Source of the DNA: an uncultured Bacilli bacterium | GTDB lineage: Bacteria; Bacillota_I; Bacilli_A; RF39; UBA660 | Length of the DNA: 59,567 nucleotides | Assembly: GCA_947625635.1 (NCBI GenBank) | Contig: CANQPA010000003.1 | Coordinates: 1 to 59,567 of the forward strand | Direction: 5' to 3' | In this document: positions 18,798-59,567 of the stretch, piece after piece | How the letters are laid out: every line of letters starts with the position of its first letter | Numbering within the stretch: the first letter of the stretch is position 1 | Made by a program: the position numbers and the translations under genes | The notes under the pieces: model-generated | The model's input: only the letters and a program-made list of their open reading frames with translations | Databases searched by the model: none | What the model was told of the DNA's origin: nothing

Positions 18798-20117
18798 CTA
18801 TTCAAATTTTGACAACATGAGCCCAATTATTATAAAATATATAGGAGCTACTTGTATAACGCTTATATTCACGAAAGCTTGTATTGAATATGCAAAAAAA
18901 GCACTCAATAATAAAAACATTAATTTATTATTAGATTTTAAACCTCTGATAAAGGTTAAAAAACATAATACAAGATAAGGAATCAAGCCAAAAATGCCAG
19001 TGCTTACGCAAGTATGAATATAAACATTATGTGCATTATCAACAATATTATAGTAATTATTTATCGAAGAATTATTTAATCCACTTGTTGACAAATATAA
19101 TTTAACATTAGAGTTAATTTTTTGATTTGGATATGCTAAATAAAAATTATCAAATCCAACACCAACTAATAGATTATCTTTTATTATATCCAAACTATTC
19201 ATCCATATTTTTAATCTACCATTACCTCCACTTTTTATTGTCTCATTTATACCTTTCTTACCTATTTCCCATCTAAAATTACCAATACCATTATCTTTTA
19301 CAAAAATAACAGCCATATTTATAAAAAATACAGAAATACAAGTGATTATAAAAATAATAATTAACGACAATAATTTATTCAACATTAAGCTCTTTTTTAT
19401 ATTAAGAAAAAAAGCCAAAAATATAATCACTAATATATATGCTATAAAAGGCCCTGTTGATTGAGAATTTATAAGCGATATAAACAATATTATTATACTA
19501 AAATATTCTCCTTTTGTAGATTGTTTGTTATATAAAAATTTACAAGAAATAATTCCCAAAGTAGTAACAATTAAACTTCCAAAGAAATTTGGATTAACAC
19601 ATAATCCACTAGCCATAAATGTATCATCATACCTAATTATAAAATCAAAATTAGTATACATTTGTAATAATGAATATATTGAATTAACAATAGAAATAAT
19701 TATTATTAATCTTATAAAATTATTTATATCTTTTTTTGTTGCATAAAATTTCCAATTTATAAAAAGTAAATAATAACATAACATAGATAAAAAGCCTTCA
19801 TGTCTATAATCCTTACCAAAAATAGAAATTTCTTTATTTATTGAAAAGGCAACAGAAATAAGTCCCGTTATAACAAGCAAAAAAAATATATAATCATATA
19901 TGTCGATTTTTCTACAACCATTTTTAACATCTTTAAAATAAATATATAACAAAAAGGGTATCGAAACAAATAAAATTATAGCTGGATTAATGTAATCATA
20001 GTTACTGATTATATTATAATGTTCTAAATACTTAGAAACATTTTTTAAGAGTGGAACTCCTATTAAAATGCATAAAGAAGCTATACTTAATATTTTTTTG
20101 TTATAAAGGCACTTCAT
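18798..20117 (-). CDS. O-antigen ligase (Wzy_C) family membrane protein
   Basis: About 11-12 hydrophobic segments; NPN, GRLKIW, GVGFDNF, AHNVY motifs. Confidence 0.85.
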   Translation of the reverse strand: MKCLYNKKILSIASLCILIGVPLLKNVSKYLEHYNIISNYDYINPAIILFVSIPFLLYIYFKDVKNGCRKIDIYDYIFFLLVITGLISVAFSINKEISIFGKDYRHEGFLSMLCYYLLFINWKFYATKKDINNFIRLIIIISIVNSIYSLLQMYTNFDFIIRYDDTFMASGLCVNPNFFGSLIVTTLGIISCKFLYNKQSTKGEYFSIIILFISLINSQSTGPFIAYILVIIFLAFFLNIKKSLMLNKLLSLIIIFIITCISVFFINMAVIFVKDNGIGNFRWEIGKKGINETIKSGGNGRLKIWMNSLDIIKDNLLVGVGFDNFYLAYPNQKINSNVKLYLSTSGLNNSSINNYYNIVDNAHNVYIHTCVSTGIFGLIPYLVLCFLTFIRGLKSNNKLMFLLLSAFFAYSIQAFVNISVIQVAPIYFIIIGLMLSKFE

Positions 20118-20217
20118 ATTATCACCAAAACAATAATATCATATAAAATTAAAAATTAAAATAGAAATGCTTTTGGAAATATATATATATATATTGAAAA
20201 ATTTCAGGTTACTATAC

Positions 20218-20250
20218 AAAATCTACACATTTTTACTTAGTGTAGATTTT
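20218..20250 (-). terminator. Terminator after der
   Basis: AAAATCTACAC/GTGTAGATTTT inverted repeat. Confidence 0.6.
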
Positions 20251-20260
20251 ATCAAATGAA

Positions 20261-21571
20261 TTATTCTTTTTTACCTTTAAAATTGATAACAATCGGTGTC
20301 CCGGAAAAATCAAAAGACTCCCTTATTTTATTTTCCAAATATCTTTCATAAGAAAAATGTATAAGTGATTTACTATTTACTTGAATGTTAAAAGTAGGTG
20401 GCATAGATTTTACCTGACTTGCAAAATATATTTTAAGTCTTTTTCCTTTATAACTTGGTGGAAGATTAAGCTCATATGCATCCATTATAACATTATTTAA
20501 TATACTTGTTTTTATTTCTTTTTTACTATTTTCATATGCATTCAATATTTCTGGCATTAATGTATGCATTCTTGATTTAGTTTTTGCACTTAAAAAAACT
20601 ACTTTTGCATATGGCATAAATGAAAAATTTACTTCTATATCATGTTTCCATTTTTTCATAGCTATATCCTTATTTTCTACTAAATCCCATTTATTTACTG
20701 CTATTACAATAGCTTTACCTGCACGTTTTATATATCCTGCTATATGTTTATCGTGCTCTATTATTCCTTCTTCTGCATTAATAACAAGCACACAAACATC
20801 GGATCTGTCTATTGCTTTTAAACTTCTAAGCAAACTATATTTTTCTATACTTTCATATATCTTACCCTTTTTTCTCATACCAGCAGTATCTATAACTACA
20901 TATTTTTCATTATTAAAATTAAATTCTGTATCAATCGCATCTCTAGTTGTTCCAGCTAAATCAGAAACTATAACTCTTTGTTCATTCAACACAGCATTTA
21001 CCAGACTGCTTTTACCTACATTTGGTCTACCAACAATGCAAAATCTTACCTTTGTATCATCTATAAATTCCTCAGATTTAGGAATTTTACTTGTAATTAA
21101 ATCAATTAAGTCATATATTCCTGTACCATGTTCTCCACTAACTTTAACTATATCTTTAAATCCTAGTTCATAAAAATCGTATTCATTTTCTTTTATTTTT
21201 TTACTATCGCATTTATTTACAGCAACTATTACTTTATTAGATACTTTTTTCAACATATCGCGAACTAAAAAATCATCGCTAGTTAATCCTTCTTTTCCAT
21301 CTACAACAAATACTACTATATCTGCTTCTTCTATTGCAAGACTTGCCTGAACCTTTATTTTATCATTAAAAGATTTATTACCTAATTCAATACCACCAGT
21401 ATCTATTAAATAAAAATTATAATTATTAATATTTACATTAGCCATTATCCTGTCCCTAGTTACACCGGGTATATCCTCTATTATAGATATTTTTTTACCA
21501 ACGATTCTATTAAATATCGTGCTTTTACCTACATTTGGTCTACCTACTAAGGCAACTGTGAATTTTTTCAT
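20261..21571 (-). CDS. der: Ribosome biogenesis GTPase Der (EngA)
   Basis: Two GRPNVGKS G-domains plus a KH-like C-terminus. Confidence 0.98.
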   Translation of the reverse strand: MKKFTVALVGRPNVGKSTIFNRIVGKKISIIEDIPGVTRDRIMANVNINNYNFYLIDTGGIELGNKSFNDKIKVQASLAIEEADIVVFVVDGKEGLTSDDFLVRDMLKKVSNKVIVAVNKCDSKKIKENEYDFYELGFKDIVKVSGEHGTGIYDLIDLITSKIPKSEEFIDDTKVRFCIVGRPNVGKSSLVNAVLNEQRVIVSDLAGTTRDAIDTEFNFNNEKYVVIDTAGMRKKGKIYESIEKYSLLRSLKAIDRSDVCVLVINAEEGIIEHDKHIAGYIKRAGKAIVIAVNKWDLVENKDIAMKKWKHDIEVNFSFMPYAKVVFLSAKTKSRMHTLMPEILNAYENSKKEIKTSILNNVIMDAYELNLPPSYKGKRLKIYFASQVKSMPPTFNIQVNSKSLIHFSYERYLENKIRESFDFSGTPIVINFKGKKE

Positions 21572-21597
21572 AGGATCATCCCTTTCAAATCAAAAGT

Positions 21598-21626
21598 ATT
21601 ATAGCAAAAAAAAAAAAAAAGTTCAA
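21598..21626 (-). promoter_or_regulatory. der promoter with a T15 spacer
   Basis: TTGAAC-(T15 GC)-TATAAT, 17-bp spacer, extended -10 TG. Confidence 0.6.
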
Positions 21627-21648: not shown

Positions 21649-22068
21649 CTATCCAAGAGTTTGGGCAGTAGACACTGATTTTTTAGCAAGGTCTGCTCCA
21701 CAATCAACTGAAAAATCACCATTGGATTCTTTCTTTACTGTACAATTTACACCATCATCTGTTACAATTGCTATTTCTGTTGGTGCATCACCTGTACAAG
21801 TTTTAGATTTCATATTTTCTATTTTTAAATTATCACATATTGTCTTTAATGTTGGTGTTCCTACTATACTTCCATCTGTTGTTTGATACAATGATGTTGT
21901 ATATGCATATTGAACTCCTGTGTATACAAGTTCTGCTGATCTTTTTTTAGCACTATCCCTTGCATCATTTATAATTCCAAGTATAATTGGAGTTGCTATT
22001 AATGCGATTATTGCAAGTATTACGATTACTGCAAGTAATTCTATCAATGTAAATCCTTTTTTATTCAT
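21649..22068 (-). CDS. Type IV pilin, copy 1
   Basis: KKG/FTLIE prepilin site, hydrophobic helix, C-terminal Cys pair. Confidence 0.92.
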   Translation of the reverse strand: MNKKGFTLIELLAVIVILAIIALIATPIILGIINDARDSAKKRSAELVYTGVQYAYTTSLYQTTDGSIVGTPTLKTICDNLKIENMKSKTCTGDAPTEIAIVTDDGVNCTVKKESNGDFSVDCGADLAKKSVSTAQTLG

Positions 22069-22098
22069 ACTATCACCACCTTACTCTATTACATCACA

Positions 22099-22127
22099 AG
22101 TATACTAGATTTATCTATTTTTGTCAA
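22099..22127 (-). promoter_or_regulatory. Promoter of pilin copy 1
   Basis: TTGACA-N17-TATACT. Confidence 0.75.
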
Positions 22128-22177
22128 GAAAATTATAAAAAGTAAAATATTTAAAAAAAGTTCAATTAATATTGAAC

Positions 22178-22600
22178 TTAAGATATTTTTTGACCTGTAG
22201 ATACTGATTTTTTATCAAGATAATCACCACAGTCAACCGTAAAATCTGAATCTGATGGTTCTACTGTACACTCAACACCATCGTCTGTTTTGATCTTTAT
22301 ACTTGTTGCCGCTTCTTCATTTGGATCATAAGCTTTAGATTGCATATTTTCTATTTCTAAATTACTATATATTGTCTTTAATGTTGGTGTTCCTACTACC
22401 TCACCCTCTGTTGTTTGATACAATGATGTTGTATACGCATATTGAACTCCTGTGTATACAAGTTCTGCTGATCTTTTTTTAGCACTATCCCTTGCATCAT
22501 TTATAATTCCAAGTATAATTGGAGTTGCTATTAATGCGATTATTGCAAGTATTACGATTACTGCAAGTAATTCTATCAATGTAAATCCTTTTTTATTCAT
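22178..22600 (-). CDS. Type IV pilin, copy 2
   Basis: Same first 64 aa as copy 1, divergent C-terminal half. Confidence 0.92.
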   Translation of the reverse strand: MNKKGFTLIELLAVIVILAIIALIATPIILGIINDARDSAKKRSAELVYTGVQYAYTTSLYQTTEGEVVGTPTLKTIYSNLEIENMQSKAYDPNEEAATSIKIKTDDGVECTVEPSDSDFTVDCGDYLDKKSVSTGQKIS

Positions 22601-22630
22601 ACTATCACCACCTTACTCTATTACATCACA

Positions 22631-22659
22631 AGTATACTAGATTTATCTATTTTTGTCAA
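22631..22659 (-). promoter_or_regulatory. Promoter of pilin copy 2
   Basis: TTGACA-N17-TATACT, identical to the copy 1 promoter. Confidence 0.75.
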
Positions 22660-22709
22660 GAAAATTATAGAAGGTAAAATATTTAAAAAAAGTTCAATTA
22701 ATATTGAAC

Positions 22710-23126
22710 TTAAGATATTTTTTGACCTGTGGATACTGATTTTTTATCAAGATATCCTTCGCAAGCAACAGCAAAATCGTCATCTGCTTCTTTTGTTACT
22801 TCACAAGATACACCATCATCTGTTGTAATAGTTATTTTTGTTGTAGTAGTCACTATATTTTTATCTTGAACGTTTTCTAACTTTAAATTTTTAGATATTG
22901 TTTCTAAAGTTGGTGTTACTACTATCTCACCATCTGTTGTTTGATACAATGATGTTGTATATGCATATTGAACTCCTGTGTATACAAGTTCTGCTGATCT
23001 TTTTTTAGCACTATCCCTTGCATCATTTATAATTCCAAGTATAATTGGAGTTGCTATTAATGCGATTATTGCTAGTATTACGATTACCGCAAGTAATTCT
23101 ATCAATGTAAATCCTTTTTTATTCAT
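22710..23126 (-). CDS. Type IV pilin, copy 3
   Basis: Same N-terminus; start moved to 23126; own TTGACA-N18-TATATT promoter at 23158-23187. Confidence 0.92.
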   Translation of the reverse strand: MNKKGFTLIELLAVIVILAIIALIATPIILGIINDARDSAKKRSAELVYTGVQYAYTTSLYQTTDGEIVVTPTLETISKNLKLENVQDKNIVTTTTKITITTDDGVSCEVTKEADDDFAVACEGYLDKKSVSTGQKIS

Positions 23127-23170
23127 ACTATCACCACCTATCATCCTCTATAGTATAAATATACCATGTC

Positions 23171-28020: not shown

Positions 28021-28035
28021 GAGTACCACCTCTTT

Positions 28036-37486: not shown

Positions 37487-38620
37487 TTATGATAAATTTG
37501 ATTTCATTAATTCTATTACAGGTCTAACGCCTAATTCATTTTCAGTGTCTACACCACTTTCATAATATAAAGTACCATATTGTAAGTACCAAGCTCCTTT
37601 TTTACCATTTTGAGTACCAGTTGTATCTAAAGTCCAATAACCACTTATACCTTGTATACTTTGAAATTTATTAATCATCTCCTGTGCAATACCATCTTGG
37701 TTATATTCACTAATATAATTCGAAGCCCATAGTGGACACCCCACATTTGACTCAGTACAACCTACTTCATTCATTTCAACTGAACTTGGAAGTCTGGACT
37801 TTCCACTTATATTAACAGTATTGTACCCTCCAATGTCCTTACCAGTATTAATATAAATTTGATCTAAAGATGGTATATTTGTCCATGATTTAGTTGCTTG
37901 TTTTAAATATTTTAAGGCAGTAATAGGTCCAACCGTAACGCCTTGGTTATCACTATTCCATTCCTCATGACTTACATTAACAAAATCTAAATTATTAATC
38001 CAGGCAACCAAACCTTTATTTGACTCAGTCGCTGGTTCACCATTAGAATTTATATTTCTATCCATGATTAACTTAACTTTTTCTCCATCTACACCAAGTA
38101 TAAAAAAATGATAACTATCTACTTTATTTACTTGACAAATATATTCATCCCCAGGATTATAAAGTCCAACTGGAACATTACCAGTCGTTTTTGTAGCCTC
38201 TGTTACGGAAGAACAAATAGGTTTATATATATATTCGCATCCATCAACATTAACTGGATTTACTTCATAATTAAAATTCAAAGTACCATACTTAGAAACA
38301 TTTGATATTATCTTTATTTTTAAATCATCTGATATTGCTTCATTAGTTCTTGGATCAAGTACATTTGGATTTATTAATCCATCTACTTTTAAATCATGTA
38401 AAGTTATATAAGCACAATTACCTGCATCTGGTAATCTGTTTAAATTATCCGATCCCCATTCCTTTGCTGCTGCCTCTATTGATAAAATTTGGGTTTCATA
38501 CAAATCATTTTTAGAATCTGTAACCAATTTTGTTATTGCTGTACTTGCTAATAAAGACAATAAAGAAAGAACAATTATAACCGCTAATAGTTCTACTAAT
38601 GTAAATCCACTTGAACGCAT
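37487..38620 (-). CDS. Type IV pilin-like protein with a C-terminal CLec-like (DUF6273-like) domain
   Basis: G/FTLVE prepilin site; C-terminal RLPS..E, GYWT, AWY, GVRPVI. Confidence 0.8.
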   Translation of the reverse strand: MRSSGFTLVELLAVIIVLSLLSLLASTAITKLVTDSKNDLYETQILSIEAAAKEWGSDNLNRLPDAGNCAYITLHDLKVDGLINPNVLDPRTNEAISDDLKIKIISNVSKYGTLNFNYEVNPVNVDGCEYIYKPICSSVTEATKTTGNVPVGLYNPGDEYICQVNKVDSYHFFILGVDGEKVKLIMDRNINSNGEPATESNKGLVAWINNLDFVNVSHEEWNSDNQGVTVGPITALKYLKQATKSWTNIPSLDQIYINTGKDIGGYNTVNISGKSRLPSSVEMNEVGCTESNVGCPLWASNYISEYNQDGIAQEMINKFQSIQGISGYWTLDTTGTQNGKKGAWYLQYGTLYYESGVDTENELGVRPVIELMKSNLS

Positions 38621-38641
38621 AACATCCTCCTTTTTATATTA

Positions 38642-39040
38642 TTAATATACATACTGACAATCTGCAACACTATTAGCATCGACCTCATAATTTAATATCA
38701 AATTGCCTCGTTGACCTTTAATTCCAGTAATTTTTATTATCATATCATCGGATAATTCTTCAAGTGTTCTAGCATCTATAACATTTGAATCAAGAGTACC
38801 AGCTTCTTTTAAATCTTCTAAAGTCAAATATTTACATTCTTCAATATCTGGCAATTTATTTAAATTATCTGCAGCCCAAATTTTAGCAGCCTCTTCAATA
38901 GCTAATATTTGGGTTTCATATAAATCATTCTTTGATTCACCCAATAATTTTACTATTGCTGTACTTGCTAACAAAGCTAATAAAGAAAGAATAATTATAA
39001 CCGCCAATAATTCTACCAATGTAAATCCATTCTTTATCAT
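38642..39040 (-). CDS. Type IV pilin-like protein
   Basis: NG/FTLVE; paralog of the N-terminal ~130 aa of 37487-38620. Confidence 0.88.
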   Translation of the reverse strand: MIKNGFTLVELLAVIIILSLLALLASTAIVKLLGESKNDLYETQILAIEEAAKIWAADNLNKLPDIEECKYLTLEDLKEAGTLDSNVIDARTLEELSDDMIIKITGIKGQRGNLILNYEVDANSVADCQYVY

Positions 39041-42739: not shown

Positions 42740-43732
42740 CTAATCAGATGAATTATCTTTACAATCTATTGAACTTCCATCTAATTTAGTACAAATTGTA
42801 GTAGAACCTACATATGTTTTATAATAAGTATCTACTTCACAATTATTGTTAAGGAAACAATTAGCACATGTTCTTACACCACTTTGATCCTCACCATCAG
42901 CAACTTTAGATATTACAAACTGTACTATGGATACTATAAAGAATACTATTGCTGCCGCAATTATCCTTCTAACTAATGAGGATTGAGCTTTCTTTATATC
43001 ATCTTCTTTTGAAGCTGCCAAGGCCTTTAGAAGAGATATAACACTGACAACTATCAATATTATTGGAGTTGCAATTTTTAATAAATTAACAACAAAACTT
43101 GTAAGTTCTGGAACCTGACTAGGAATATCAAAAGCCCCACCACATGATACATATTGTAATTTGTCTGTATTACAATACCCTTCCTTACCAGTCTTTCTTT
43201 TAAATTCATCACTATATTCATTCCATACACATGAAAAATATCTATCATTTTCACAAGAAGTTTTATCTTGAAGTTCTGCGCATGATGAGGTTTCCTCTTG
43301 CTCAGGATTATCGATTTGTTTTTCTTTTTCAAATATAATTTTGTTTCCACAAGGCTCACTAGTGTCCACCCCATGATAAGAATTCTGAACTACATTAGTT
43401 TTAGGATTTTTAGCATCTTCCAAAGTATCATAAAAATAAACAGATGCTTTGGCACGACCATTATAACATACTGTGGCATACTCTTTACAACTTTCAGAAG
43501 TTTTATCACTACTGGTATTGATCGACTCATTTTTTGGAATTAAAGTTGATATATCAGTAATATTAACATCTTCTATGGTAGGTTTCTCGTAACCACCCGC
43601 CCATTTAAGTTTAAACGAACCAGTTCTATTTTCATCATTCGATAAATATGTACAACTTTTTGCACTTGTCTCAATCATAAATCCAAAAGAAATAAAGAAT
43701 GCAAACAATAATATTAATATTTTTTTCTTCAT
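42740..43732 (-). CDS. Secreted Cys-rich protein with a VirB2/TrbC-like pilin hairpin
   Basis: Signal peptide, many Cys, two TM helices joined by KALAASKEDDIKKAQSSLVRRIIAA, Cys-rich tail. Confidence 0.7.
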   Translation of the reverse strand: MKKKILILLFAFFISFGFMIETSAKSCTYLSNDENRTGSFKLKWAGGYEKPTIEDVNITDISTLIPKNESINTSSDKTSESCKEYATVCYNGRAKASVYFYDTLEDAKNPKTNVVQNSYHGVDTSEPCGNKIIFEKEKQIDNPEQEETSSCAELQDKTSCENDRYFSCVWNEYSDEFKRKTGKEGYCNTDKLQYVSCGGAFDIPSQVPELTSFVVNLLKIATPIILIVVSVISLLKALAASKEDDIKKAQSSLVRRIIAAAIVFFIVSIVQFVISKVADGEDQSGVRTCANCFLNNNCEVDTYYKTYVGSTTICTKLDGSSIDCKDNSSD

Positions 43733-51695: not shown

Positions 51696-51784
51696 ATTAT
51701 CACCAATTATATTATAATTTATTTCATATTATCGTTTCAAGTATTTTATATGATTTTATTTTAAAAAGTGTAAAGAAAAAGGAA

Positions 51785-52888
51785 TTATAAATCAATAATT
51801 CCACACCCATTTACAGTGAATCCCATTTTATCAAGTACAAATACTATTATTAAAGGTATTATGAACGTAAGAGCAGCAGCAATTAATCTTTTTATAAATC
51901 TCGCTTGTGCCTTTTTCATTTCATCATCTTTATCAGAAGCAATAGCTCGTATGAAGTCAATAATACCGAATATAATTACTGCGACTGGTATAATATATTT
52001 TATCCAATTAAAAATATTTCTAATCCATATAGCCAGTCTATTTGAAAATGAACAAGTATCTTTTAAATTATTGGTTTCTATGTAACTATCTTTCAATAAT
52101 TTCAAAGCTTCATATTCATTCAAACAACTTTGGATACAGCCATCTTCTACACTATAGTTTTGATTTGAAACTATATTTCTACAAGTATCTTTTAGTATAT
52201 CAATTTTTCTATTAACCTCAGAAAGTGCTTTACTTCTACAAATAGAAATTTTAGAATTATCAGTTGAATTTTTTTCACAATCACCATATGAAACATATGA
52301 TTTTGCAACGTCTACAAGCATTTCATTAAATTTTGCACAATAACTTATAAAATTTTCTTTGTTTTGCTCAAAATATTCATCAGTTACTTCTTTTCTGTCT
52401 TTTCTTGTTATAGGATAAATACGACAATCAACAGATTTACTAGTTACACTTCTCCAAATTTGTGAAAGCATACCATACTTATCATGAGATGTATCAAATG
52501 TGTCTACACCATTAATATTTATGGTTTGAGGATCCATTGTCGAACCAAACACCCCTAAACGTCCACCAACGATTCCTCCACTTTTACAAACCAAAATATT
52601 AGTTAAACATTGATTAGTATTTTCAAATATATTAGAACCAATATAAAAATCCTTATCTCCATCGAAGGAATATAGCGTTCCTCCATTATAACTACTACTT
52701 ACAGCGATCCTTGTTTCCTGACCGTCCGATTGCTCTTCCTTAACTTCATCTACATTTATAATTATGCTACCGGAACCTGTGCCAAGATGTTCTTCTAATG
52801 AATATTCACATGTTGAAGCTTCTGCTACATTAATTTGTATAAATCCTAAAACAATAGCAAAAAAACATATTAATAATTTTTTTTTCAT
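51785..52888 (-). CDS. Secreted Cys-rich protein with a C-terminal VirB2/TrbC-like pilin hairpin
   Basis: Signal peptide (AEA), Cys-rich body, WIKYIIPV...DFIRAIAS.KDDEMKKAQ.RFIKRLIAA.L.FIIP. Confidence 0.72.
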   Translation of the reverse strand: MKKKLLICFFAIVLGFIQINVAEASTCEYSLEEHLGTGSGSIIINVDEVKEEQSDGQETRIAVSSSYNGGTLYSFDGDKDFYIGSNIFENTNQCLTNILVCKSGGIVGGRLGVFGSTMDPQTININGVDTFDTSHDKYGMLSQIWRSVTSKSVDCRIYPITRKDRKEVTDEYFEQNKENFISYCAKFNEMLVDVAKSYVSYGDCEKNSTDNSKISICRSKALSEVNRKIDILKDTCRNIVSNQNYSVEDGCIQSCLNEYEALKLLKDSYIETNNLKDTCSFSNRLAIWIRNIFNWIKYIIPVAVIIFGIIDFIRAIASDKDDEMKKAQARFIKRLIAAALTFIIPLIIVFVLDKMGFTVNGCGIIDL

Positions 52889-52909
52889 ATAAAACTCCTT
52901 TTTCAATTG

Positions 52910-53932
52910 TTATCGTGTTTTAATATAATCAATAGGAGGATTTAAAATATTTGAACCAAAATTTTTTGTTATATCATAAATCTTAATAACTTTATCCCTT
53001 AAGGCATACTTATTATTTTTAAATAATTTAACTTTTCTTACCTGTTTTTCTCTCTTAGAAAGTAATTTTGATAATCTATTTTGATATATTTTTAATTTTG
53101 AAATATTATACACAGTATGTTCTTTATCACTTAAATTTTCAATACTACTTTCCGTATCAGATATTTTTTTGTATATTTTAAACAACTTGTCCTCTTTGTC
53201 ATAATTTTCTAATTTATCTTGTATTTTTACTAACTCTGTTTGTGCCCTTTCTAGTTGGGTATGTAAAGCACTTAATCTCAATGAATATATAGCTGTTTCA
53301 AAAGATAAAGGATTACTATTTTCTCTAATTGCTATTAGTTGTTTCAATAATTCTATTTGATTTTCATATCTTAAATATGCTATTTTCAAATCATAATTAT
53401 TAGTATGATTATTAAGTAAAACATCAATTTTATTTTCTAAAATTAAATTAAATTCCTTAATTAATTCTGATTCTGAAGTTTTTACTTCACCAATACTAGA
53501 TGATTGTGAAGAACCATATAATTTTGCTTTTCTAATTTTTTCTGCTACATATCCAGTAGTAGAAGCAACTAAGTATATAGTAGAATTGACTATTTTTTTT
53601 ACATTTTTTTTAATATTTGTTATATCTACGCCCTTTTTATATGATAATGGCTCATGATAATAAGAAGAATCTGAATATATATTTCTATTTTTTATAAAAT
53701 TTTCTAAATATGAATCGTATCTTTTCTTTTCTTCTTTATCAGATAATTTTCTATATGCATCTTTGATTTTCTCTCTCTCATAATCATTTGTCGTTTCCTT
53801 TAATCTCTTGTTTGCCATATACTTTAGATCATCAAAATTTATTGTTTTTAGATAATTTAAATCATCAATAGTAAAATCCGTTGTTTTTCCATAACCCAAC
53901 ACTTCATAATAATTTTTATCATTATAATCCAT
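52910..53932 (-). CDS. Hypothetical coiled-coil protein with a degenerate N-terminal J-domain
   Basis: NYYEVLG...KIKDAYRKLSD..KK.RYD, no HPD; start moved to 53932. Confidence 0.65.
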   Translation of the reverse strand: MDYNDKNYYEVLGYGKTTDFTIDDLNYLKTINFDDLKYMANKRLKETTNDYEREKIKDAYRKLSDKEEKKRYDSYLENFIKNRNIYSDSSYYHEPLSYKKGVDITNIKKNVKKIVNSTIYLVASTTGYVAEKIRKAKLYGSSQSSSIGEVKTSESELIKEFNLILENKIDVLLNNHTNNYDLKIAYLRYENQIELLKQLIAIRENSNPLSFETAIYSLRLSALHTQLERAQTELVKIQDKLENYDKEDKLFKIYKKISDTESSIENLSDKEHTVYNISKLKIYQNRLSKLLSKREKQVRKVKLFKNNKYALRDKVIKIYDITKNFGSNILNPPIDYIKTR

Positions 53933-53986
53933 AATTAATTCCTCACTTACAAGCACAATTATACCACATTTTTTTAACAAATTAAA

Positions 53987-54577
53987 CTATAATTGTTGTA
54001 CAAATTTTTTTATTATCAAATTACAATTTTCTGTATATTCGAAATAATAACAAAAAGAAACTAATATTGACCCCAAAAGTGCAACTATAATGTCACCCAT
54101 AGTGTCACTAACACCAGTTAATATAACCCTTTGTGGATCAACATTGAAATAATAACTTGAAAGATATTCAAATATTTCCCAAAGTGATGCAATCAACATA
54201 GAAAAAGAAATTAAAAATATTATATTGAAAATCACTTTATTATTAATTTTCAACTTTACAAGTATATATATAGCAACAAAACTTGTTACAATACCTGAAA
54301 TAAAGTGTGTAAATTTATCAAACCAATAAATTGAATTATATAACTCACAAATAACTCCAAGAAAATGTGACATAAATATGAACAATATATATATAAAATT
54401 TATACCCTCGTTTATTCTTACTTTAAAAATTTTCTGAATTATATATAATAAATTTATTGTAAAAATTATTGAAATATCCTTTAAAACAAAAATTATATTT
54501 TCATCTTTTGTTATAGCAAAATACAAACTACCTATAGTTGAAAATATTATCAATAAAAAATTAATTTTCTTTATCAT
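53987..54577 (-). CDS. Membrane protein (DUF2238/YjdF-like)
   Basis: WFDKFTHF.SG, WEIFEY, DTMGDI. Confidence 0.7.
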   Translation of the reverse strand: MIKKINFLLIIFSTIGSLYFAITKDENIIFVLKDISIIFTINLLYIIQKIFKVRINEGINFIYILFIFMSHFLGVICELYNSIYWFDKFTHFISGIVTSFVAIYILVKLKINNKVIFNIIFLISFSMLIASLWEIFEYLSSYYFNVDPQRVILTGVSDTMGDIIVALLGSILVSFCYYFEYTENCNLIIKKFVQQL

Positions 54578-55628: not shown

Positions 55629-55684
55629 ACTTATCACCATATATATTATATCATGAAAATGAAAAAATAAGATAAATTAATATC

Positions 55685-55972
55685 TTATTCGTTCAAAATC
55701 CATGCTTCATAACCACCTGTTACATTTGCAACATTATACCCATTGTTTTGTAAAATTTGACATAATCTTCTACTTTGTATTCCTTTTTGACAATAAATAT
55801 AATATTTTTCATTTTTATTTAAGTACTTATCAAAACTTAATAATAATTGTTCCATTGGTATATTTTTTGCATTCATTATATGTTTATCATTATATTTTTC
55901 TATACTTCTTATATCTATTAAATTTACGTTACCTAATTTTTTTAATTCAGTTACAGAAATACTATTTATCAT
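55685..55972 (-). CDS. Rhodanese-like protein
   Basis: LIDIR, HI..A.NIP, YCQKGIQS, GGY.AW. Confidence 0.88.
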   Translation of the reverse strand: MINSISVTELKKLGNVNLIDIRSIEKYNDKHIMNAKNIPMEQLLLSFDKYLNKNEKYYIYCQKGIQSRRLCQILQNNGYNVANVTGGYEAWILNE

Positions 55973-56027
55973 ATAACCACCCTAATACATTATATGTATT
56001 CAATAGTATTTTATAGAGTTAAAAAGT

Positions 56028-58133
56028 TTATTCATCTGAAAAAAAGTCATCGAAGAACTGATCGTCAGTTATTCCATTTTTATTCTTTTTTTCTTCCTCG
56101 TATCTTTCAAATTCGCTATTTAATTTTGATTTTTCATCATCTTCTTCAATAGCCGATTTTTCAATTTTTGCCTCTTTAATAGATTCTTTTTCATTTTTTT
56201 CTAATTTAGCTTTTTCTTGTCTTTCTTCTTCCTCAAGTTCTGCAATCTTAGCATCTATTCTTTTTACTAAATCATCAACATTAAAGCCTCCATTATTACC
56301 TGCAGATTTTGAAATTTCAGAAAAAGGATTATATGCATTCTCAGGCATAAAAGGTGGTACTTTAGGCATCTCGTATCCGCCTAAGGATTCCCCGCCTAAC
56401 ATATTATTAATCTTTTCCTCTCTTTTTTTATTCACAAAAGCTTTTAAATCAAATGTTTTTACAGGTTGTTTTTCTCTATGAGGATATGAAGCTTTAGGGA
56501 AATTATGCCCCCAGTTCATCTGAAAATTAGGAGTTAATTTTGTCTTAAAAGGCATAGTTCTTAATCTCAAAATAATTGTTTCCCATTGGCTTAATCTTTG
56601 AAGATCACTTACAGTAACTAATGGTGTTGAAGAAGTTTTTTCTTTTTCTTTTGATTTAACTTCACCACACATTTTACTTATCTCTTCGAGTGCAGAAAGT
56701 TCCGTACTTATTAGATAAACAATATTACCACAGTTTCCTTTTATAGTTTCTCCATTTTCTTTACCATAAACTTCATTAAGTTGAGCAAAGTTTTGAATTA
56801 TAAAAGTAAATCTAATATTTCTTGAACGAGCAGCTGTAACCATAGTAGTTACATCTTTTAAAGGTGGCATATTAGCAAACTCATCCAATATAAAATTAGT
56901 CCTATGCGGTAATTTTCCACCAGATTCTTGAGCAACTGAAATTAAAGTTTCATAACACTGCTTTAAAAAAATTGTAACAAGGGAATGATATGTTGTTTTT
57001 TCATCCTGTATAACTATAAACACAGCCGTCTTTTTTCTACCTATATCCCTCATATCGAAATCGTTATTAGACAGCATTTCAGATAAATTAGCACGAGATG
57101 CAAACAACTGTATTTTTTGCTTAAATACAGATAATATACTTCCCTTTGTTTCGCTTGGAGCCATTAAGGTGGAAGAAGCTTTCGTATATGCTGTTCCAGC
57201 TGGATCCTTATAACTAAAATAATCTTTTACATATGTAGTGTTAGCTAATTTTTCTTCGCCAACGGTTGTCATTAAACTTATAGAATTTAAATTTATTTCT
57301 GATGGATCAGCATCTTCAAAAAGTGCACAAGCTAACCCTGCAAAATAATCTGCAGATGTATTTTCCCAGAAAGGGTCTTGTCCTTTCGCACTTGGATCAT
57401 GAAGAATATTTGCAGCTAAATCCTCAAGTAACTCAACTGATTTATCTATATTTCCATCTTTATATAATGAATATGGTAAATACATAGGATTCCAAGCATT
57501 CCCTTGCTGTGGATCACGGAAATTTAATAAAACAATATTATAACCTAAACTCTTCAAATAATTAGAAGTTTGCTCATATATTTCTCCCTTAGGGTCTGTG
57601 ATAATCATAGACTCATCGTGTTTAGCCAGTAAATTTACCATAGGTAATACTGTTGTTTGAGTTTTTCCTGCACCGGTAGAACCTATAACCAAATTATGAT
57701 ATCCACCATTATCAACCCATACTTTTTTAGGATTCATAATTAATGGAATTCCAGCAGCATCGGCCTTAGGAGCCAAAGGGTCTACTTCCCTAACATCTAA
57801 ACCATTCTGAACTTCTTTTTCTTTAGCCCATCTAGAATAATTTTTTTCTTTTTTTTGCCCAATAGAAATACCTATTCCTGTTGCATCCTCTTCCTTTTCT
57901 AAAAATATTGATTTAACGCCAGCAAAAACGGCTACAAGGCCAGCCAAAAAAAATACTATTGTAGCGGCTATATTTTGTGGAAAAAAGGCCAGAAACAAAT
58001 TAAAAGTAAAAGATTCCCCTTTTATAAACTGAGATACATTTGATACTGCAAAAGCAACTACTATTAACCAAACTACTGCAAATATACAAAATATTAATAC
58101 ATCTTTAGCTTCTGCTTTAAATCTTAACTTCAT
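56028..58133 (-). CDS. virD4: VirD4/TraG-family type IV coupling protein
   Basis: Two N-terminal TMs, HNLVIGSTGAGKT, ITDPKGE, DPFWE, ILDEFAN, ARSR, QN.AQL..VYG; acidic C-terminal tail. Confidence 0.92.
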   Translation of the reverse strand: MKLRFKAEAKDVLIFCIFAVVWLIVVAFAVSNVSQFIKGESFTFNLFLAFFPQNIAATIVFFLAGLVAVFAGVKSIFLEKEEDATGIGISIGQKKEKNYSRWAKEKEVQNGLDVREVDPLAPKADAAGIPLIMNPKKVWVDNGGYHNLVIGSTGAGKTQTTVLPMVNLLAKHDESMIITDPKGEIYEQTSNYLKSLGYNIVLLNFRDPQQGNAWNPMYLPYSLYKDGNIDKSVELLEDLAANILHDPSAKGQDPFWENTSADYFAGLACALFEDADPSEINLNSISLMTTVGEEKLANTTYVKDYFSYKDPAGTAYTKASSTLMAPSETKGSILSVFKQKIQLFASRANLSEMLSNNDFDMRDIGRKKTAVFIVIQDEKTTYHSLVTIFLKQCYETLISVAQESGGKLPHRTNFILDEFANMPPLKDVTTMVTAARSRNIRFTFIIQNFAQLNEVYGKENGETIKGNCGNIVYLISTELSALEEISKMCGEVKSKEKEKTSSTPLVTVSDLQRLSQWETIILRLRTMPFKTKLTPNFQMNWGHNFPKASYPHREKQPVKTFDLKAFVNKKREEKINNMLGGESLGGYEMPKVPPFMPENAYNPFSEISKSAGNNGGFNVDDLVKRIDAKIAELEEEERQEKAKLEKNEKESIKEAKIEKSAIEEDDEKSKLNSEFERYEEEKKNKNGITDDQFFDDFFSDE

Positions 58134-58142
58134 TATTATCAC

Positions 58143-58613
58143 CTATATTTCTACTGTATAATCATCTAAATATAATTCATATTGCATAACACCTTTGGTT
58201 TTAAATATATATATATTTTCATATTGATCATACACTCCAAATATTATATATTCATCTGCAGCCTGTTTATAATATCTAGATAATGTATATGTATTATTAC
58301 CTAAAGAATTTATATAATCTATATAATTTTGTTTATTACCAAATTTTTTGTTTCTATACTCTTCAGCTAGCAAATTATAAGCTTTATTCGGGTCATTGTG
58401 CATCGTATATATATAATCATTTAAATATATTCTTGCCATAGCCTCATCAGATATATAAGTAGCTATATACTCATTAACTTTATAATCTTTCAAATATTCA
58501 TCATATTCTTCTTCATCCTTAGGGGTTAAACTTCTTAATAAGAAATATAAAATTAAAAGCCCTACTAACACTATAATGACAATTAATATATCTTTTATTG
58601 TTTTTTTATTCAT
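58143..58613 (-). CDS. Single-TM hypothetical protein in the virD4 operon
   Basis: N-terminal TM, AYNLL...Y motif; start moved to 58613. Confidence 0.7.
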   Translation of the reverse strand: MNKKTIKDILIVIIVLVGLLILYFLLRSLTPKDEEEYDEYLKDYKVNEYIATYISDEAMARIYLNDYIYTMHNDPNKAYNLLAEEYRNKKFGNKQNYIDYINSLGNNTYTLSRYYKQAADEYIIFGVYDQYENIYIFKTKGVMQYELYLDDYTVEI

Positions 58614-59124
58614 CTTCTTCACCATCCGTAAATATTTTGCCAGAATATGGTTCAACTGAAAAAGTTTTACTAGTGGAATCTAAGTAAACAATAAAATAAA
58701 CATCTTTATTTTCATAATTATCAACTGTACCATTTTCATATAGAAGATTTTTTTCAATATTTCCATATACATAATACTTAGTAATATTATTATTCAATTT
58801 TTCGTAATACATTTTTTTAGATGTAAATGTCGAATCAGAATCAACTCGAGGTAAGAACTCCATAACATTTTCAATTGTTACTTTTTGATTTTTTTTATAA
58901 TTGTCATCTAAAACGAGAATCAAACTTTCTCTATCATTGGACGATAAATATGTAATAAATCTATATAAACAAGAATTAACCGTATAAAAATTACTATAAT
59001 TAGTTACAATACTTATCTCATTTTCATTTATTTTATCATTTTTATTATAAAATGATGTAACAATAACAACGATTATTACTAATACAACCAATATAATAGC
59101 AGTTAATTTAGATTTATCTTTCAT
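58606..59124 (-). CDS. Single-TM hypothetical protein in the virD4 operon
   Basis: N-terminal TM, L..VLD.NY motif; overlaps the next gene by 8 bp. Confidence 0.7.
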   Translation of the reverse strand: MKDKSKLTAIILVVLVIIVVIVTSFYNKNDKINENEISIVTNYSNFYTVNSCLYRFITYLSSNDRESLILVLDDNYKKNQKVTIENVMEFLPRVDSDSTFTSKKMYYEKLNNNITKYYVYGNIEKNLLYENGTVDNYENKDVYFIVYLDSTSKTFSVEPYSGKIFTDGEEDE

Positions 59125-59150
59125 AAAAAAATCCCCTCACTTTATTTTTA

Positions 59151-59567
59151 TCAAGTATTATAAACATATTTACCATTATGAAATAATTCCCATTCTGCTT
59201 TTCTTCTTCTTGATAATCCAGTTTCAAAACCTTTTCTTATACTTCTATAAAACCAATTTGTATACAGTTCATCAGTATCACCATATTTTTTAAAGGCAGA
59301 TACAAACCCACTTATATTACCAGTATTATACTTCTGTGAAATTAAAGCTTCTATCTGATTATTTGAAAGTACAATTTCATTATTCGCAAGAGTATTTTCA
59401 ATATCACTTCTAGCATCCGCTATAACTTCAAGTTCAACTTGATCAACTATATCAACTGGAATCTTATCTCCAGGATGATAATCATCTGGATTTATTCCAT
59501 ACTTCAAAAAATAATTACCCGTATATTCAAGTGTAAGTCCATGCCCCACAGTTCTTACATCATCTCC
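59151..59567 (-). CDS. GH24 (phage-type) lysozyme domain, 5' part outside the window
   Basis: Frame stays open to the window edge (GDDVRTVGHG); L.NNQIEALIS..YN.G and GLSRRRKAEWELF. Confidence 0.8.
   Translation of the reverse strand, partial: GDDVRTVGHGLTLEYTGNYFLKYGINPDDYHPGDKIPVDIVDQVELEVIADARSDIENTLANNEIVLSNNQIEALISQKYNTGNISGFVSAFKKYGDTDELYTNWFYRSIRKGFETGLSRRRKAEWELFHNGKYVYNT

What the first reader, a model, noticed from the sequence alone, without database searches (positions are those of the whole stretch)
18798..59567. Dispersed chromosomal T4P + T4SS toolkit: candidate cell-contact or host-attachment system
Seen: about 41 kb of otherwise housekeeping DNA carries five type IV pilins, a Wzy_C transferase, two VirB2-like pilin fusions, VirD4 and a lysozyme domain, each placed between core genes. 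No relaxase, integrase or transposase is present. Established: episymbiotic Saccharibacteria/Patescibacteria combine many type IV pilins with chromosomal T4SS genes. Inference: this spore-forming, reduced Bacilli lineage may use a domesticated, non-conjugative T4SS plus variable pili to contact other cells, and the scattered cytoplasmic orphans could be its substrates.
Basis: partly seen in the sequence, partly recalled or inferred. Interest (0 to 1): 0.75.

Follow-up and report, generated by a model that had tools for sequence, protein, structure and literature searches.

The report
Chromosome-fixed secretion machine, split by contig
The secretion genes at the end of this window are the tail of one large conjugation-type secretion machine that nearly every species of this small-genome gut bacterial family inherits in its chromosome, apparently without the DNA-nicking enzyme that conjugation needs.

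Summary
The listed genes are real: five type IV pilins, a Wzy_C protein, two T4SS_pilin fusions, VirD4 and a weak lysozyme domain.

The T4SS is not dispersed. The window is a whole contig. VirD4 and the "lysozyme" are the last genes of one operon of about 25.5 kb that continues on contig C18. That operon holds a CpaF/VirB11-like ATPase module, a TadZ-like protein, a VirB2-like pilin array, VirB6, a PrgI-like protein, a split VirB4 and wall hydrolases.

The operon is fixed and inherited vertically:
- VirD4 was found in 292 of 299 sampled family genomes.
- VirB4 lies upstream in 66 of 66 loci with enough flank.
- VirB4 and RNase R distances correlate at r = 0.95.

Known relaxases are patchy, 0 to 28 of 61 genomes.

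The closest homologue is the conjugation operon of a plasmid carrying a pLS20_p028-family gene. The closest analogue is the chromosomal T4SS of Patescibacteria.

The type IV pilins belong to a separate PilBCD system with 19-24 pilin genes.

The cargo is unknown. This is a new variant of a known kind. Earlier reports of this scan found the same system in other genomes.

The parts
56028..58142 (-). VirD4-type coupling protein (704 aa, two N-terminal TM segments). It is the last gene of the T4SS operon.
   Evidence: PF02534 197.9 bits, TrwB_AAD_bind and TraG-D_C. NF045973 CD1115 family 295.9 bits, above the 250 cut-off. TM segments. It is the only T4SS-DNA_transf match in the genome. Matches in 292 of 299 sampled family genomes.
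59151..59567 (-). C-terminal lysozyme-like domain of a bifunctional M23-peptidase/lysozyme wall hydrolase (VirB1-type role). Its N-terminal 276 aa lie at the start of contig C18.
   Evidence: The ORF is open at its 5' end at the contig end. The same-genus orthologue is one 417-aa ORF with M23 (83.7 bits) and Phage_lysozyme (22.5 bits). The C18 fragment aligns to residues 5-275 of it and the window fragment to residues 282-417, leaving about 6 residues missing.
58606..59124 (-). Conserved single-TM protein h172 of the T4SS operon, function unknown.
   Evidence: No family. One N-terminal TM segment. Found between the hydrolase and VirD4 in the closer relatives.
58143..58655 (-). Conserved single-TM protein h170 of the T4SS operon, function unknown.
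   Evidence: No family. One TM segment. Syntenic in the closer relatives.
51785..52906 (-). Outlying T4SS pilin-like paralogue (the database form is 367 aa): signal peptide, Cys-rich variable ectodomain, C-terminal two-helix membrane hairpin.
   Evidence: PF18895 28.2-32.6 bits, above the 26.6 cut-off. 161 homologues, many carrying PF18895. Invariant Cys residues and loop motif. The model shows helices 281-317 and 321-354. A pilin-domain gene lies downstream of VirD4 in 32 of 57 loci with at least 8 kb of flank.
42740..43732 (-). Second outlying T4SS pilin-like paralogue (330 aa) with a different Cys-rich ectodomain and a Cys-rich tail.
   Evidence: PF18895 20-24 bits, below the cut-off. Same architecture and loop motif as the array pilins. 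Its C-terminal third matches the pilin array of G054 at 50% identity, E 7.5e-22, and a gene at the same position in G250.
21649..23144 (-). Three tandem type IV pilin paralogues (139-144 aa). About the first 65 residues are identical and the C-terminal regions vary.
   Evidence: N_methyl and TIGR02532 hits. 75-79% identity. Direct repeat of 300 nt in three copies at 88-96% identity.
37487..39040 (-). Two further type IV pilins: 132 aa (38642-39040) and 377 aa with a large C-terminal domain (37487-38620).
   Evidence: N_methyl and TIGR02532 hits. Prepilin N-termini.
18798..20117 (-). Wzy_C-family polytopic membrane protein. Any link to the pilins is untested.
   Evidence: PF04932 59.9 bits, above the 31.7 cut-off. 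Only a weak IctB hit in NCBIfam.
52910..53980 (-). Variable cytoplasmic orphan (356 aa) between the T4SS flank and the pilin fusion. Not shown to belong to the system.
   Evidence: No family at E up to 5. tblastn match in 1 of 80 related loci.

Best explanation
VirD4, two small membrane proteins and the 'lysozyme' at the window's end are the 3' end of one operon of about 25.5 kb. The rest of it lies on contig C18, which abuts the window end.

Gene order (shown):
- a polytopic protein and a secreted protein
- a DUF5411 protein
- a CpaB-like SAF protein
- a CpaF/VirB11-like ATPase
- two polytopic proteins
- two single-TM proteins
- a TadZ-like ParA/MinD-fold protein
- an array of four or five VirB2-like pilin proteins
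- VirB6
- a PrgI/VirB3-like protein
- VirB4, split into a 180-aa and a 594-aa gene
- a CHAP hydrolase
- a lipoprotein
- an M23-lysozyme hydrolase
- two single-TM proteins
- VirD4

Shown: this is a Gram-positive conjugation-type T4SS of the kind found on a plasmid with a pLS20_p028-family gene. It has become a fixed, vertically inherited chromosomal feature of nearly every species of this small-genome gut Bacilli family, with no conserved known relaxase.

Shown: the two pilin fusions in the window are scattered paralogues of the array. The five type IV pilins belong to a separate PilB/PilC/PilD pilus with 19-24 pilin genes genome-wide.

Inferred mechanism:
1. The hydrolases open the wall.
2. 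VirB6, VirB3 and VirB4 form the membrane channel.
3. The pilin hairpins, with their variable Cys-rich outer domains, build or tip a surface fibre that recognises target cells.
4. VirD4 feeds cargo into the channel.

I lean towards a host-serving, contact-dependent, non-conjugative function such as attachment, protein delivery or exchange with neighbouring cells (about 45%). DNA transfer is next (about 30%).
For: Join of the two contigs:
- In 66 of 66 related loci with at least 7 kb of upstream flank, VirB4 lies upstream of VirD4 on the same strand. VirB6 does so in 61 of 63 loci with at least 9.9 kb.
- The two halves of the hydrolase align to residues 5-275 and 282-417 of one 417-aa same-genus ORF.

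Whole cluster:
- It is collinear in three genomes with 64-86% VirD4 identity.

Component calls:
- TrbL_4, P-loop_TraG, CHAP, M23, T2SSE, SAF and DUF5411.
- VirB11 TIGR02788 113.7 bits; the 180-aa gene matches the N-terminal part of VirB4 and the 594-aa gene the rest (NF045975, positions 100-276 and 295-891).
- PrgI at E 0.074.
- The TadZ-like protein has a ParA/MinD fold: 30 Foldseek hits at E <= 1e-3.

Fixation and vertical descent:
- VirD4 matched in 292 of 299 sampled same-family genomes and 124 of 127 genera.
- Across the class it matched in 37 of 37 genomes of the family. Outside the family only two genomes had full-length matches, at 46-50% identity; the rest were at most 41%.
- Pairwise distances over 40 taxa: VirB4 against RNase R r = 0.95, VirD4 against RNase R r = 0.79.
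- VirB4 (mean distance 0.14) is more conserved than RNase R (0.30).

No conserved relaxase (sample of 61 genomes):
- MobL 5, Relaxase 5, Rep_trans 2, MobA_MobL 0, Mob_Pre 28.
- No DNA-processing family was hit inside the cluster.

Plasmid homologue: plasmid pDSYZ has the same module order, including a 76-aa PF18895 protein.

Separate type IV pilus:
- PilC, PilD and PilB lie on C35.
- 19 prepilins by regex and 24 DNA motif hits.
Against: - The contigs share no sequence overlap, so the join rests on synteny and on the protein alignment.
- Absence of a relaxase was tested with five Pfam families only. An unrecognised relaxase among the unannotated cluster proteins is not excluded.
- Mob_Pre occurs in 28 of 61 genomes, so mobilisable elements that could use this channel are common.
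- VirD4 itself is typical of conjugative coupling proteins: it passes the 'conjugal transfer' CD1115 model.
- Three of the 292 VirD4 matches are weak (E 1e-27 to 1e-64) and may be plasmid-type paralogues.
- The pilin assignment rests on marginal HMM scores. Pfam PF18895 finds a hit in only 43 of 61 family genomes at E <= 1e-3.
- The genome is a MAG with 7.8% estimated contamination.
- Kinship makes the distance correlation non-independent.
Confidence: 0.55

Rival explanations
1. The conserved T4SS is still a DNA-transfer machine. It conjugates chromosomal DNA, as in mycoplasma chromosomal transfer, or serves in trans the mobilisable elements of the family. It would use an unrecognised relaxase or one encoded elsewhere.
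For: - VirD4 passes the CD1115 'conjugal transfer' model.
- VirB4 and VirB6 hit the mycoplasma ICE models best (NF045975 344.8 bits, NF045889).
- The closest homologous operon is on a conjugative plasmid.
- Mob_Pre relaxases occur in 28 of 61 family genomes.
- This genome's own relaxase-bearing contig C24 shows no VirD4.
- The review PMC12857230 (passages read) describes a minimal ICE conjugation apparatus in mycoplasmas and ICE-mediated chromosomal transfer (MCT). I recall, rather than read, that no canonical relaxase is known for those ICEs.
Against: - No relaxase family approaches the 98% prevalence of VirD4.
- No SSB, primase, NikA or relaxase family was hit in the chromosomal cluster, whereas C24 and pDSYZ carry them.
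- NF045975 scores below its 590-bit cut-off.
Confidence: 0.3
2. VirD4 and its neighbours are part of an integrated conjugative element or another recently acquired mobile island.
For: The component families are those of Gram-positive conjugative elements. The genome also holds a separate plasmid- or ICE-like T4SS with a MobL relaxase on C24.
Against: - The site and the flanks are the same (scpAB on one side; rhodanese, rmuC, rnr and smpB on the other) across relatives down to 56% VirD4 identity.
- VirD4 is present in 292 of 299 family genomes.
- Its distances track RNase R.
- GC content equals the genome's: 0.27 against 0.27.
- No integrase or relaxase family was hit in the window or on C18.
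Confidence: 0.03
3. The machine imports DNA, like the ComB competence system, or acts as a channel between cells during sporulation.
For: The family is reduced and the genome carries sporulation genes. The M23 domain weakly resembles SpoIIQ models.
Against: - A conserved VirD4 coupling protein points to export. I recall that ComB-type uptake systems lack one.
- The M23 hit is generic: many M23 models score alike.
- No sporulation-specific family was hit in the cluster.
Confidence: 0.06
4. The apparent toolkit is an artefact of binning: contigs from different organisms were combined.
For: Estimated contamination is 7.8% in an 83-contig MAG.
Against: C3 itself carries core genes together with VirD4. 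The relatives reproduce the full C18-C3 arrangement on single contigs of up to 959 kb.
Confidence: 0.02

Closest known systems
Conjugation operon of Bacillus velezensis plasmid pDSYZ (NZ_CP030151.1), which carries a pLS20_p028-family gene
   Same: - Same module order: a weak DUF5411-like protein, a CpaF/VirB11 ATPase, two membrane proteins, small proteins that include a 76-aa PF18895 T4SS_pilin (32.1 bits), a large VirB6-like TM protein, a roughly 107-aa VirB3-like protein, a roughly 190-aa gene followed by a roughly 630-aa VirB4-type ATPase, and a bifunctional wall hydrolase.
- The plasmid's VirD4 is annotated as CD1115 family, the family that the window's VirD4 passes.

   Different: - The plasmid carries a MobP2 relaxase and a TOPRIM primase and is typed as conjugative. 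The chromosomal cluster shows none.
- Here VirD4 sits at the 3' end instead of before VirB6.
- Here the pilin is expanded to an array plus scattered fusions with large ectodomains, and a TadZ-like gene is present.
- Sequence identity is low: ATPase 31.5%. The best plasmid VirB4 matches, on other Bacillus and Exiguobacterium plasmids, are about 29%.
- I did not compare the plasmid's VirB4 and VirB6 with the cluster's residue by residue.
Chromosomal T4SS of Patescibacteria (survey PMC12102498; review PMC12857230)
   Same: Monoderm, MPF_FATA-type parts, chromosomal and widespread in a reduced-genome lineage, relaxase mostly absent, arrays of variable PF18895/VirB2-like pilins, co-occurrence with type IV pili (passages read; here).
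   Different: - A different phylum.
- The nearest named VirB4 relatives here are Erysipelotrichales (Thomasclavelia, Solobacterium) at 35-36% identity, not Patescibacteria.
- This system also has a CpaF/VirB11 module and a TadZ-like module.
- Essentiality and an epibiotic lifestyle are shown for Southlakia only, not here.
- No joint VirB4 tree was built.
Minimal T4SS of mycoplasma integrative conjugative elements (NCBIfam NF045975, NF045889, NF045848)
   Same: These are the best-scoring named models for VirB4 (344.8 bits) and for the VirB6-like protein. The lineage is reduced and related.
   Different: The scores are below the models' cut-offs (590, 70 and 90 bits). Mycoplasma ICEs are mobile and lack wall hydrolases. 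This cluster is fixed and carries three hydrolase domains.
Type IVa pili of Gram-positive bacteria (PilB/PilC/PilD with multiple pilins)
   Same: Prepilin N-termini, a PilD peptidase (A24 plus its N-terminal domain), PilB (416.8 bits) and PilC in the genome.
   Different: There are unusually many pilin genes for a 1.3-Mb genome: 19-24 here and 0-43 across 61 family genomes. Many are 300-560 aa.

Membership tests
VirD4/T4CP coupling protein (PF02534; NF045973 CD1115 family) | Profile score above the curated cut-offs | tested here: met
   PF02534 197.9 bits against 20.1. NF045973 295.9 bits against 250.
VirD4/T4CP coupling protein (PF02534; NF045973 CD1115 family) | N-terminal membrane anchor followed by a P-loop NTPase and an all-alpha domain | tested here: met
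   Two hydrophobic segments, 9-41 and 48-82. TrwB_AAD_bind over residues 148-510 and TraG-D_C.
T4SS_pilin (PF18895, VirB2-like) | Profile score above the gathering cut-off of 26.6 bits | tested here: met
   For 51785-52906: 28.2 bits and 32.6 bits.
T4SS_pilin (PF18895, VirB2-like) | Same criterion applied to the second fusion, 42740-43732 | tested here: not met
   20.0 bits and 24.1 bits, both below 26.6. Homology to the array pilins is nevertheless shown (50% identity, E 7.5e-22).
T4SS_pilin (PF18895, VirB2-like) | Signal peptide followed by a two-helix membrane hairpin; fold like solved VirB2/TraA pilins | tested here: inconclusive
   The model (pLDDT 73.9) has a hairpin at 281-317 and 321-354. 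Foldseek against the PDB gave 0 hits at E <= 1e-3. VIA-wide gave only generic helical hairpins, best Z 8.6.
Integrative conjugative element or conjugative plasmid | Relaxase linked to the T4SS | tested here: not met
   None in the window or on C18. The five relaxase families occur in 0-28 of 61 family genomes.
Integrative conjugative element or conjugative plasmid | Integrase or att sites, and patchy distribution among relatives | tested here: not met
   No recombinase family was hit. VirD4 is present in 292 of 299 family genomes at a conserved site. att repeats were not searched for.
Conjugation operon of pLS20_p028-bearing plasmids (example pDSYZ) | Shared module order: CpaF/VirB11, membrane proteins, pilin, VirB6, VirB3-like, short gene plus VirB4, hydrolase | tested here: met
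   pDSYZ annotation plus Pfam on its small ORFs. Whether pDSYZ belongs to the pLS20 family proper was not tested; one of its genes is annotated as pLS20_p028 family.
Conjugation operon of pLS20_p028-bearing plasmids (example pDSYZ) | MobP2 relaxase and primase in the operon | tested here: not met
   Present on pDSYZ. Not found in the chromosomal cluster.
Patescibacteria-type chromosomal T4SS | Chromosomal, lineage-wide, relaxase mostly absent, VirB2-like arrays | tested here: met
   The definition is taken from PMC12102498 (passages read).
Patescibacteria-type chromosomal T4SS | VirB4 falls inside the monophyletic Patescibacteria clade | not tested
   No tree was built. The nearest named relatives are Erysipelotrichales at 35-36% identity, which argues against membership.
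Patescibacteria-type chromosomal T4SS | Required for growth on a host cell | not testable with these tools
   This needs cultivation and genetics.
Mycoplasma ICE VirB4 (NF045975 equivalog) | Score above the 590-bit cut-off | tested here: not met
   344.8 bits for the 594-aa gene and 47.6 bits for the 180-aa gene.
Type IV pilin (prepilin N_methyl, TIGR02532) | Prepilin cleavage/methylation motif above the cut-off, with a PilD peptidase in the genome | tested here: met
   All five window pilins pass PF07963 and TIGR02532. PilD, PilB and PilC lie on C35.
TadZ/CpaE (for the 339-aa cluster protein on C18) | N-terminal receiver-like domain plus an atypical ParA/MinD ATPase domain | tested here: inconclusive
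   Two-domain model, pLDDT 70.8. ParA/MinD/FleN hits at E <= 1e-3. 3fkq ('NtrC-like two-domain protein', E. rectale) matches at E 1.5e-3. That 3fkq is TadZ is my recollection. No Pfam hit.
Wzy_C (PF04932) | Profile score above the cut-off | tested here: met
   59.9 bits against 31.7. A pilin-glycosylating role of the PglL/PilO type was not tested.

The most novel reading that the evidence does not exclude
This whole family of small-genome gut Bacilli lives by direct contact with other cells, as Patescibacteria epibionts do. Its conserved relaxase-less T4SS, with swappable pilin heads, and its expanded type IV pili would be the contact and exchange apparatus it depends on. That would be a second, independent evolution of a T4SS-dependent lifestyle among single-membrane bacteria. 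It would also show that Gram-positive T4SSs, including plasmid ones of the pDSYZ kind, do have VirB2-like pilins.
Probability: 0.25. Interest if true: 0.85.

Novelty: new variant of a known kind. Interest (0 to 1): 0.6.

Why it matters
A December 2025 review (PMC12857230, passages read) says two things. VirB2-like pilins are not found in Gram-positive T4SSs except in Patescibacteria. Those systems are unique among monoderms in being needed for growth and in their potential to make pili.

Here an uncultured Bacilli family with genomes of 0.6-1.6 Mb keeps a T4SS with a pilin array in about 98% of sampled species, and its VirB4 is more conserved than RNase R. A PF18895 pilin is also present on a Bacillus conjugative plasmid.

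If the machine serves cell contact or exchange, it would explain how these auxotrophic, hard-to-grow gut bacteria live, and it would point to co-culture partners. If it moves DNA, it is a family-wide built-in conjugation apparatus. Either answer is testable.

Full-text searches of the held library found no paper that links this lineage to a T4SS.

Tried and rejected
- Exact end-overlaps between C3 and the other 82 contigs: none of at least 12 nt. The join therefore rests on synteny and on the split hydrolase.
- Fold tests of the 373-aa pilin fusion. Foldseek against the PDB gave no hit at E <= 1e-3. VIA-wide gave only generic helical hairpins at Z <= 8.6, within the noise for helical models. 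The N-terminal ectodomain therefore stays unassigned; it was not folded alone.
- Pfam at E up to 5 on 13 unannotated cluster and window proteins gave nothing usable except PrgI at E 0.074 and a lipoprotein signal.
- NCBIfam gave no name for either pilin fusion, apart from a 14.7-bit CD3337/EF1877 hit.
- Expression: no RNA holder was listed for 51700-59567. All 8 listed runs are DNA, from rabbit and other gut metagenomes, and no reads were laid.
- Naming the order. The 2024 paper on RFN20, RF39 and ML615J-28 does not mention secretion, pili or conjugation. A search for the MAG labels gave nothing useful. Earlier notes of this scan call the lineage RF39; I did not verify that.
- Notes on this genome itself: none exist.
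- ICE reading: rejected on distribution and synteny.
- Sporulation-channel and DNA-uptake readings: considered and kept at low odds.
- A link between Wzy_C and pilin glycosylation: considered but not tested.

Full report
**Observation.**
- a Wzy_C protein at 18798-20117
- five prepilin-type proteins: three in tandem at 21649-23144 and two at 37487-39040
- a T4SS_pilin domain at the C-terminus of the 373-aa protein at 51785-52906, above Pfam's cut-off
- a weaker, sub-threshold hit of the same kind in the 330-aa protein at 42740-43732
- a clear VirD4 coupling protein at 56028-58142
- a weak Phage_lysozyme hit in the ORF that runs off the window end

Everything else in the window is housekeeping or sporulation: RecG, LepA, DnaE, RuvAB, Der, Gpr, IF-2, NusA, RecD2, MiaA, QueA, GreA, RNase R, SmpB, SpoVG, YabP and others. 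None of the 63 window ORFs of at least 80 aa that I scanned hit a relaxase, integrase or transposase family. That set covers every main non-nested ORF of the window; short nested or antisense ORFs were not scanned.

**The T4SS is one operon cut by a contig end.** The window is the whole of contig C3 of a 1.30-Mb, 83-contig MAG (89.7% complete, 7.8% contamination).
- A genome-wide search found two VirB4 genes, on C18 and C24. It found T4SS_pilin hits clustered on C18 and only one VirD4, the window's.
- Reading the minus strand, C18 carries: a polytopic protein, a secreted protein, DUF5411, a SAF/CpaB-like protein, a T2SSE ATPase, two polytopic proteins, a variable 8-TM protein, two single-TM proteins, a 339-aa cytoplasmic protein, four or five pilin-like proteins, a 761-aa TrbL_4/VirB6-like protein, a 106-aa protein, a 180-aa protein, a 594-aa VirB4, a 649-aa CHAP protein, a lipoprotein, and an M23 peptidase whose 3' end runs off the start of the contig.
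- I fetched 80 related loci with VirD4 at 56-89% identity and mapped the C18 and window proteins onto them.
- VirB4 lies upstream of VirD4 on the same strand in 66 of 66 loci with at least 7 kb of upstream flank. VirB6 does so in 61 of 63 loci with at least 9.9 kb.
- In the same-genus genome G054 the M23 and lysozyme parts form one 417-aa ORF. The C18 fragment aligns to its residues 5-275 and the window fragment to residues 282-417, so only about six residues are missing at the break.
- No literal contig overlap exists.
- The full cluster is collinear in three genomes examined over 60 kb each. It is bounded by scpA/scpB on one side and by rhodanese, rmuC, a membrane protein, rnr and smpB on the other.
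- From the first cluster gene to the end of VirD4 it spans about 25.5 kb.

**Component identities.**
- The ATPase scores best against VirB11 (113.7 bits, below the cut-off) and TadA-type models.
- The 180-aa gene matches the N-terminal part of VirB4, and the 594-aa gene the rest. They align to positions 100-276 and 295-891 of the mycoplasma ICE model NF045975 (344.8 bits against a 590-bit cut-off).
- The VirB6-like protein hits the mycoplasma ICE membrane-protein models.
- VirB4 proteins of about 600 aa are also the nearest relatives elsewhere, so the split is a conserved form and not a broken gene.
- The 106-aa protein weakly resembles PrgI/VirB3 (E 0.074).
- The 339-aa protein has more than 5,152 homologues, the best 120 at 78-84% identity, and no Pfam domain. 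Its model (pLDDT 70.8) has two alpha/beta domains. The C-terminal one matches ParA/MinD/FleN-type NTPases (30 Foldseek hits at E <= 1e-3). The two-domain entry 3fkq from Eubacterium rectale matches at E 1.5e-3. I recall, but did not verify, that 3fkq is TadZ.

**Distribution and descent.**
- VirD4 matched in 292 of 299 sampled same-family genomes and in 124 of 127 genera, in genomes of 0.6-1.6 Mb. Three of these matches are weak (E 1e-27 to 1e-64) and may be plasmid-type paralogues. Seven genomes had none.
- In a sample of the class, all 37 genomes of the family matched. Outside the family only two genomes had full-length matches, at 46-50% identity. The other matches were at most 41% identical and patchy.
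- Of the 80 loci, 39 carried VirD4, VirB4 and RNase R with at least 80% coverage. Over these plus the window (40 taxa), pairwise protein distances correlate strongly: VirB4 against RNase R r = 0.95, VirD4 against RNase R r = 0.79.
- The T4SS ATPases diverge less (mean distance 0.14 and 0.22) than RNase R (0.30). The 780 pairs are not independent.
- Together with the conserved site, this indicates vertical inheritance under strong constraint, not a mobile island.

**Relaxases and mobile elements.** In a sample of 61 family genomes, 12 of which are below 90% complete:

| Family | Genomes with a hit |
|---|---|
| MobL | 5 of 61 |
| Relaxase (PF03432) | 5 of 61 |
| Rep_trans | 2 of 61 |
| MobA_MobL | 0 of 61 |
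| Mob_Pre | 28 of 61 |

None approaches the prevalence of VirD4, and none lies in the cluster. This genome's MobL relaxase is on C24, a separate plasmid- or ICE-like contig with its own VirB4, VirB6, pilin, SSB, NikA-like proteins, a sortase and a thioester adhesin. The frequent Mob_Pre elements could in principle borrow the chromosomal channel, which keeps a DNA-transfer role open.

**The pilin-like family.**
- The array proteins and the two window fusions share one plan: signal peptide, a Cys-containing outer domain of very variable length, two hydrophobic helices joined by a conserved charged loop, and often a Cys-rich tail.
- The 373-aa fusion has 161 homologues. About two dozen are full-length at 30-45% identity, and the rest share the C-terminal half. 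Several cysteines and the loop are invariant across the 30 aligned sequences.
- Its model (pLDDT 73.9) shows a beta-rich head, a helical bundle and a terminal helical hairpin. Neither Foldseek nor VIA-wide gave a specific match, so the structure test is inconclusive.
- A pilin-domain gene lies downstream of VirD4 in 32 of 57 loci with at least 8 kb of flank. One lies at the position of the 330-aa fusion in G250.
- Pfam PF18895 detects the family in only 43 of 61 genomes at E <= 1e-3, so it is a weak probe here.

**The type IV pili are a separate system.**
- C35 carries PilC, PilD, PilB and a pilin. C31 carries a canonical Tad locus: two TadE-like proteins, a ParA-like protein, CpaF and TadB/C.
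- A regex finds 19 prepilins in the genome, many of 300-560 aa.
- The back-translated motif occurs 24 times here. Across 61 family genomes it occurs 0-43 times and is present in 57, against 0-1 hits for the reversed control.
- The three tandem window pilins are 75-79% identical. Their N-terminal halves are identical and their C-terminal regions vary.

**Comparison with what is known.**
- Earlier notes of this scan pointed me to plasmid matches for the cluster ATPase. The best matches are plasmids of about 62-64 kb from Bacillus velezensis and B. amyloliquefaciens (31.5% identity over 91% of the query).
- pDSYZ, which carries a pLS20_p028-family gene, shows the same module order and a 76-aa PF18895 protein (32.1 bits). 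It also has a MobP2 relaxase and a primase, which the chromosomal cluster lacks.
- The survey of Patescibacteria T4SSs describes the closest analogue: MPF_FATA-derived, chromosomal, widespread, relaxase mostly absent, with arrays of 2-11 pilin genes. It states that Gram-positive T4SS classes lack VirB2 homologues (PMC12102498, passages read).
- The 2025 review repeats this and calls the Patescibacteria systems unique among monoderms (PMC12857230, passages read).
- The nearest named VirB4 relatives here are Erysipelotrichales (Thomasclavelia, Solobacterium) at 35-36% identity. The resemblance to Patescibacteria is therefore one of organisation and lifestyle, not shown membership.
- Full-text searches for RF39/RFN20 with T4SS terms found no paper describing this system. 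The 2024 paper on these orders does not mention secretion, pili or conjugation.
- The same system has been reported before by this scan in other genomes.

**Mechanism and limits.**
- Shown: the anatomy, the contig join, the fixation in the family and the lack of a conserved known relaxase.
- Inferred: that the hydrolases breach the wall, that VirB6, VirB3 and VirB4 form the channel, that the pilin hairpins with variable heads form a surface fibre or adhesive tip, and that VirD4 recruits cargo.
- The cargo is unknown. I put about 45% on a non-conjugative contact function, about 30% on DNA transfer, and the remainder on other roles.
- Nothing here tests attachment, expression or essentiality, and no RNA data were available.
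- The order name RF39 comes from earlier notes and was not verified.

Noticed in passing
G000 contig C24 (L016:1-17420): A separate plasmid- or ICE-like contig. It carries HTH and AbrB/MazE regulators, a 79-aa T4SS_pilin, SSB, a thioester/SpaA adhesin with its sortase, NikA-like proteins, TrbL_4/VirB6, a 789-aa VirB4, an M23 peptidase and a MobL relaxase. No VirD4 is in view.
   Followed up: partly
G000 contig C31 (L119:7820-12657): A canonical Tad (type IVc) pilus locus: two TadE-like proteins, a ParA/MinD-like protein, a CpaF-type ATPase and two T2SSF proteins, one of them with an Ig-like domain. With it the 1.3-Mb genome has three pilus or secretion ATPase systems plus the plasmid-type T4SS.
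   Followed up: no
G000 contig C18 (L014:11438-12457, minus strand): The 339-aa TadZ-like protein of the cluster has more than 5,152 database homologues. The best 120 are 78-84% identical and none carries a Pfam domain, so this is a large, highly conserved, unnamed family.
   Followed up: partly
window:6512-8317 and window:4055-4648 (minus strand): A 601-aa HerA-like DUF87 ATPase overlaps the start of lepA, and an unannotated 197-aa ORF lies nearby. They sit inside a housekeeping stretch.
   Followed up: no
window:28036-28945 (minus strand): Two tandem cytidine/deoxycytidylate deaminase-family genes (142 and 159 aa) are inserted between infB and ylxR, within the nusA-infB operon.
   Followed up: no
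window:24660-25553 (plus strand): A transglutaminase-core protein whose best NCBIfam match is the mycoplasma MAG6410-family lipoprotein (76.6 bits, far below the cut-off).
   Followed up: no
G000 contig C35 (L118:39-872): A DUF285 / BspA-type leucine-rich-repeat surface protein, a family typical of mycoplasmas, lies next to the PilC-PilD-PilB genes.
   Followed up: no
61 family genomes: Mob_Pre (MOBV) relaxases occur in 28 of 61 genomes, often in several copies and on small contigs. This suggests abundant mobilisable elements in a family whose every member has a chromosomal T4SS.
   Followed up: no
window:30385-30648 and window:29208-30428 (minus strand): The RimP ORF is only 87 aa (N-terminal domain only) and overlaps the TTG-started NusA ORF by 44 nt. 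The starts, or the RimP C-terminal domain, may be unusual here.
   Followed up: no
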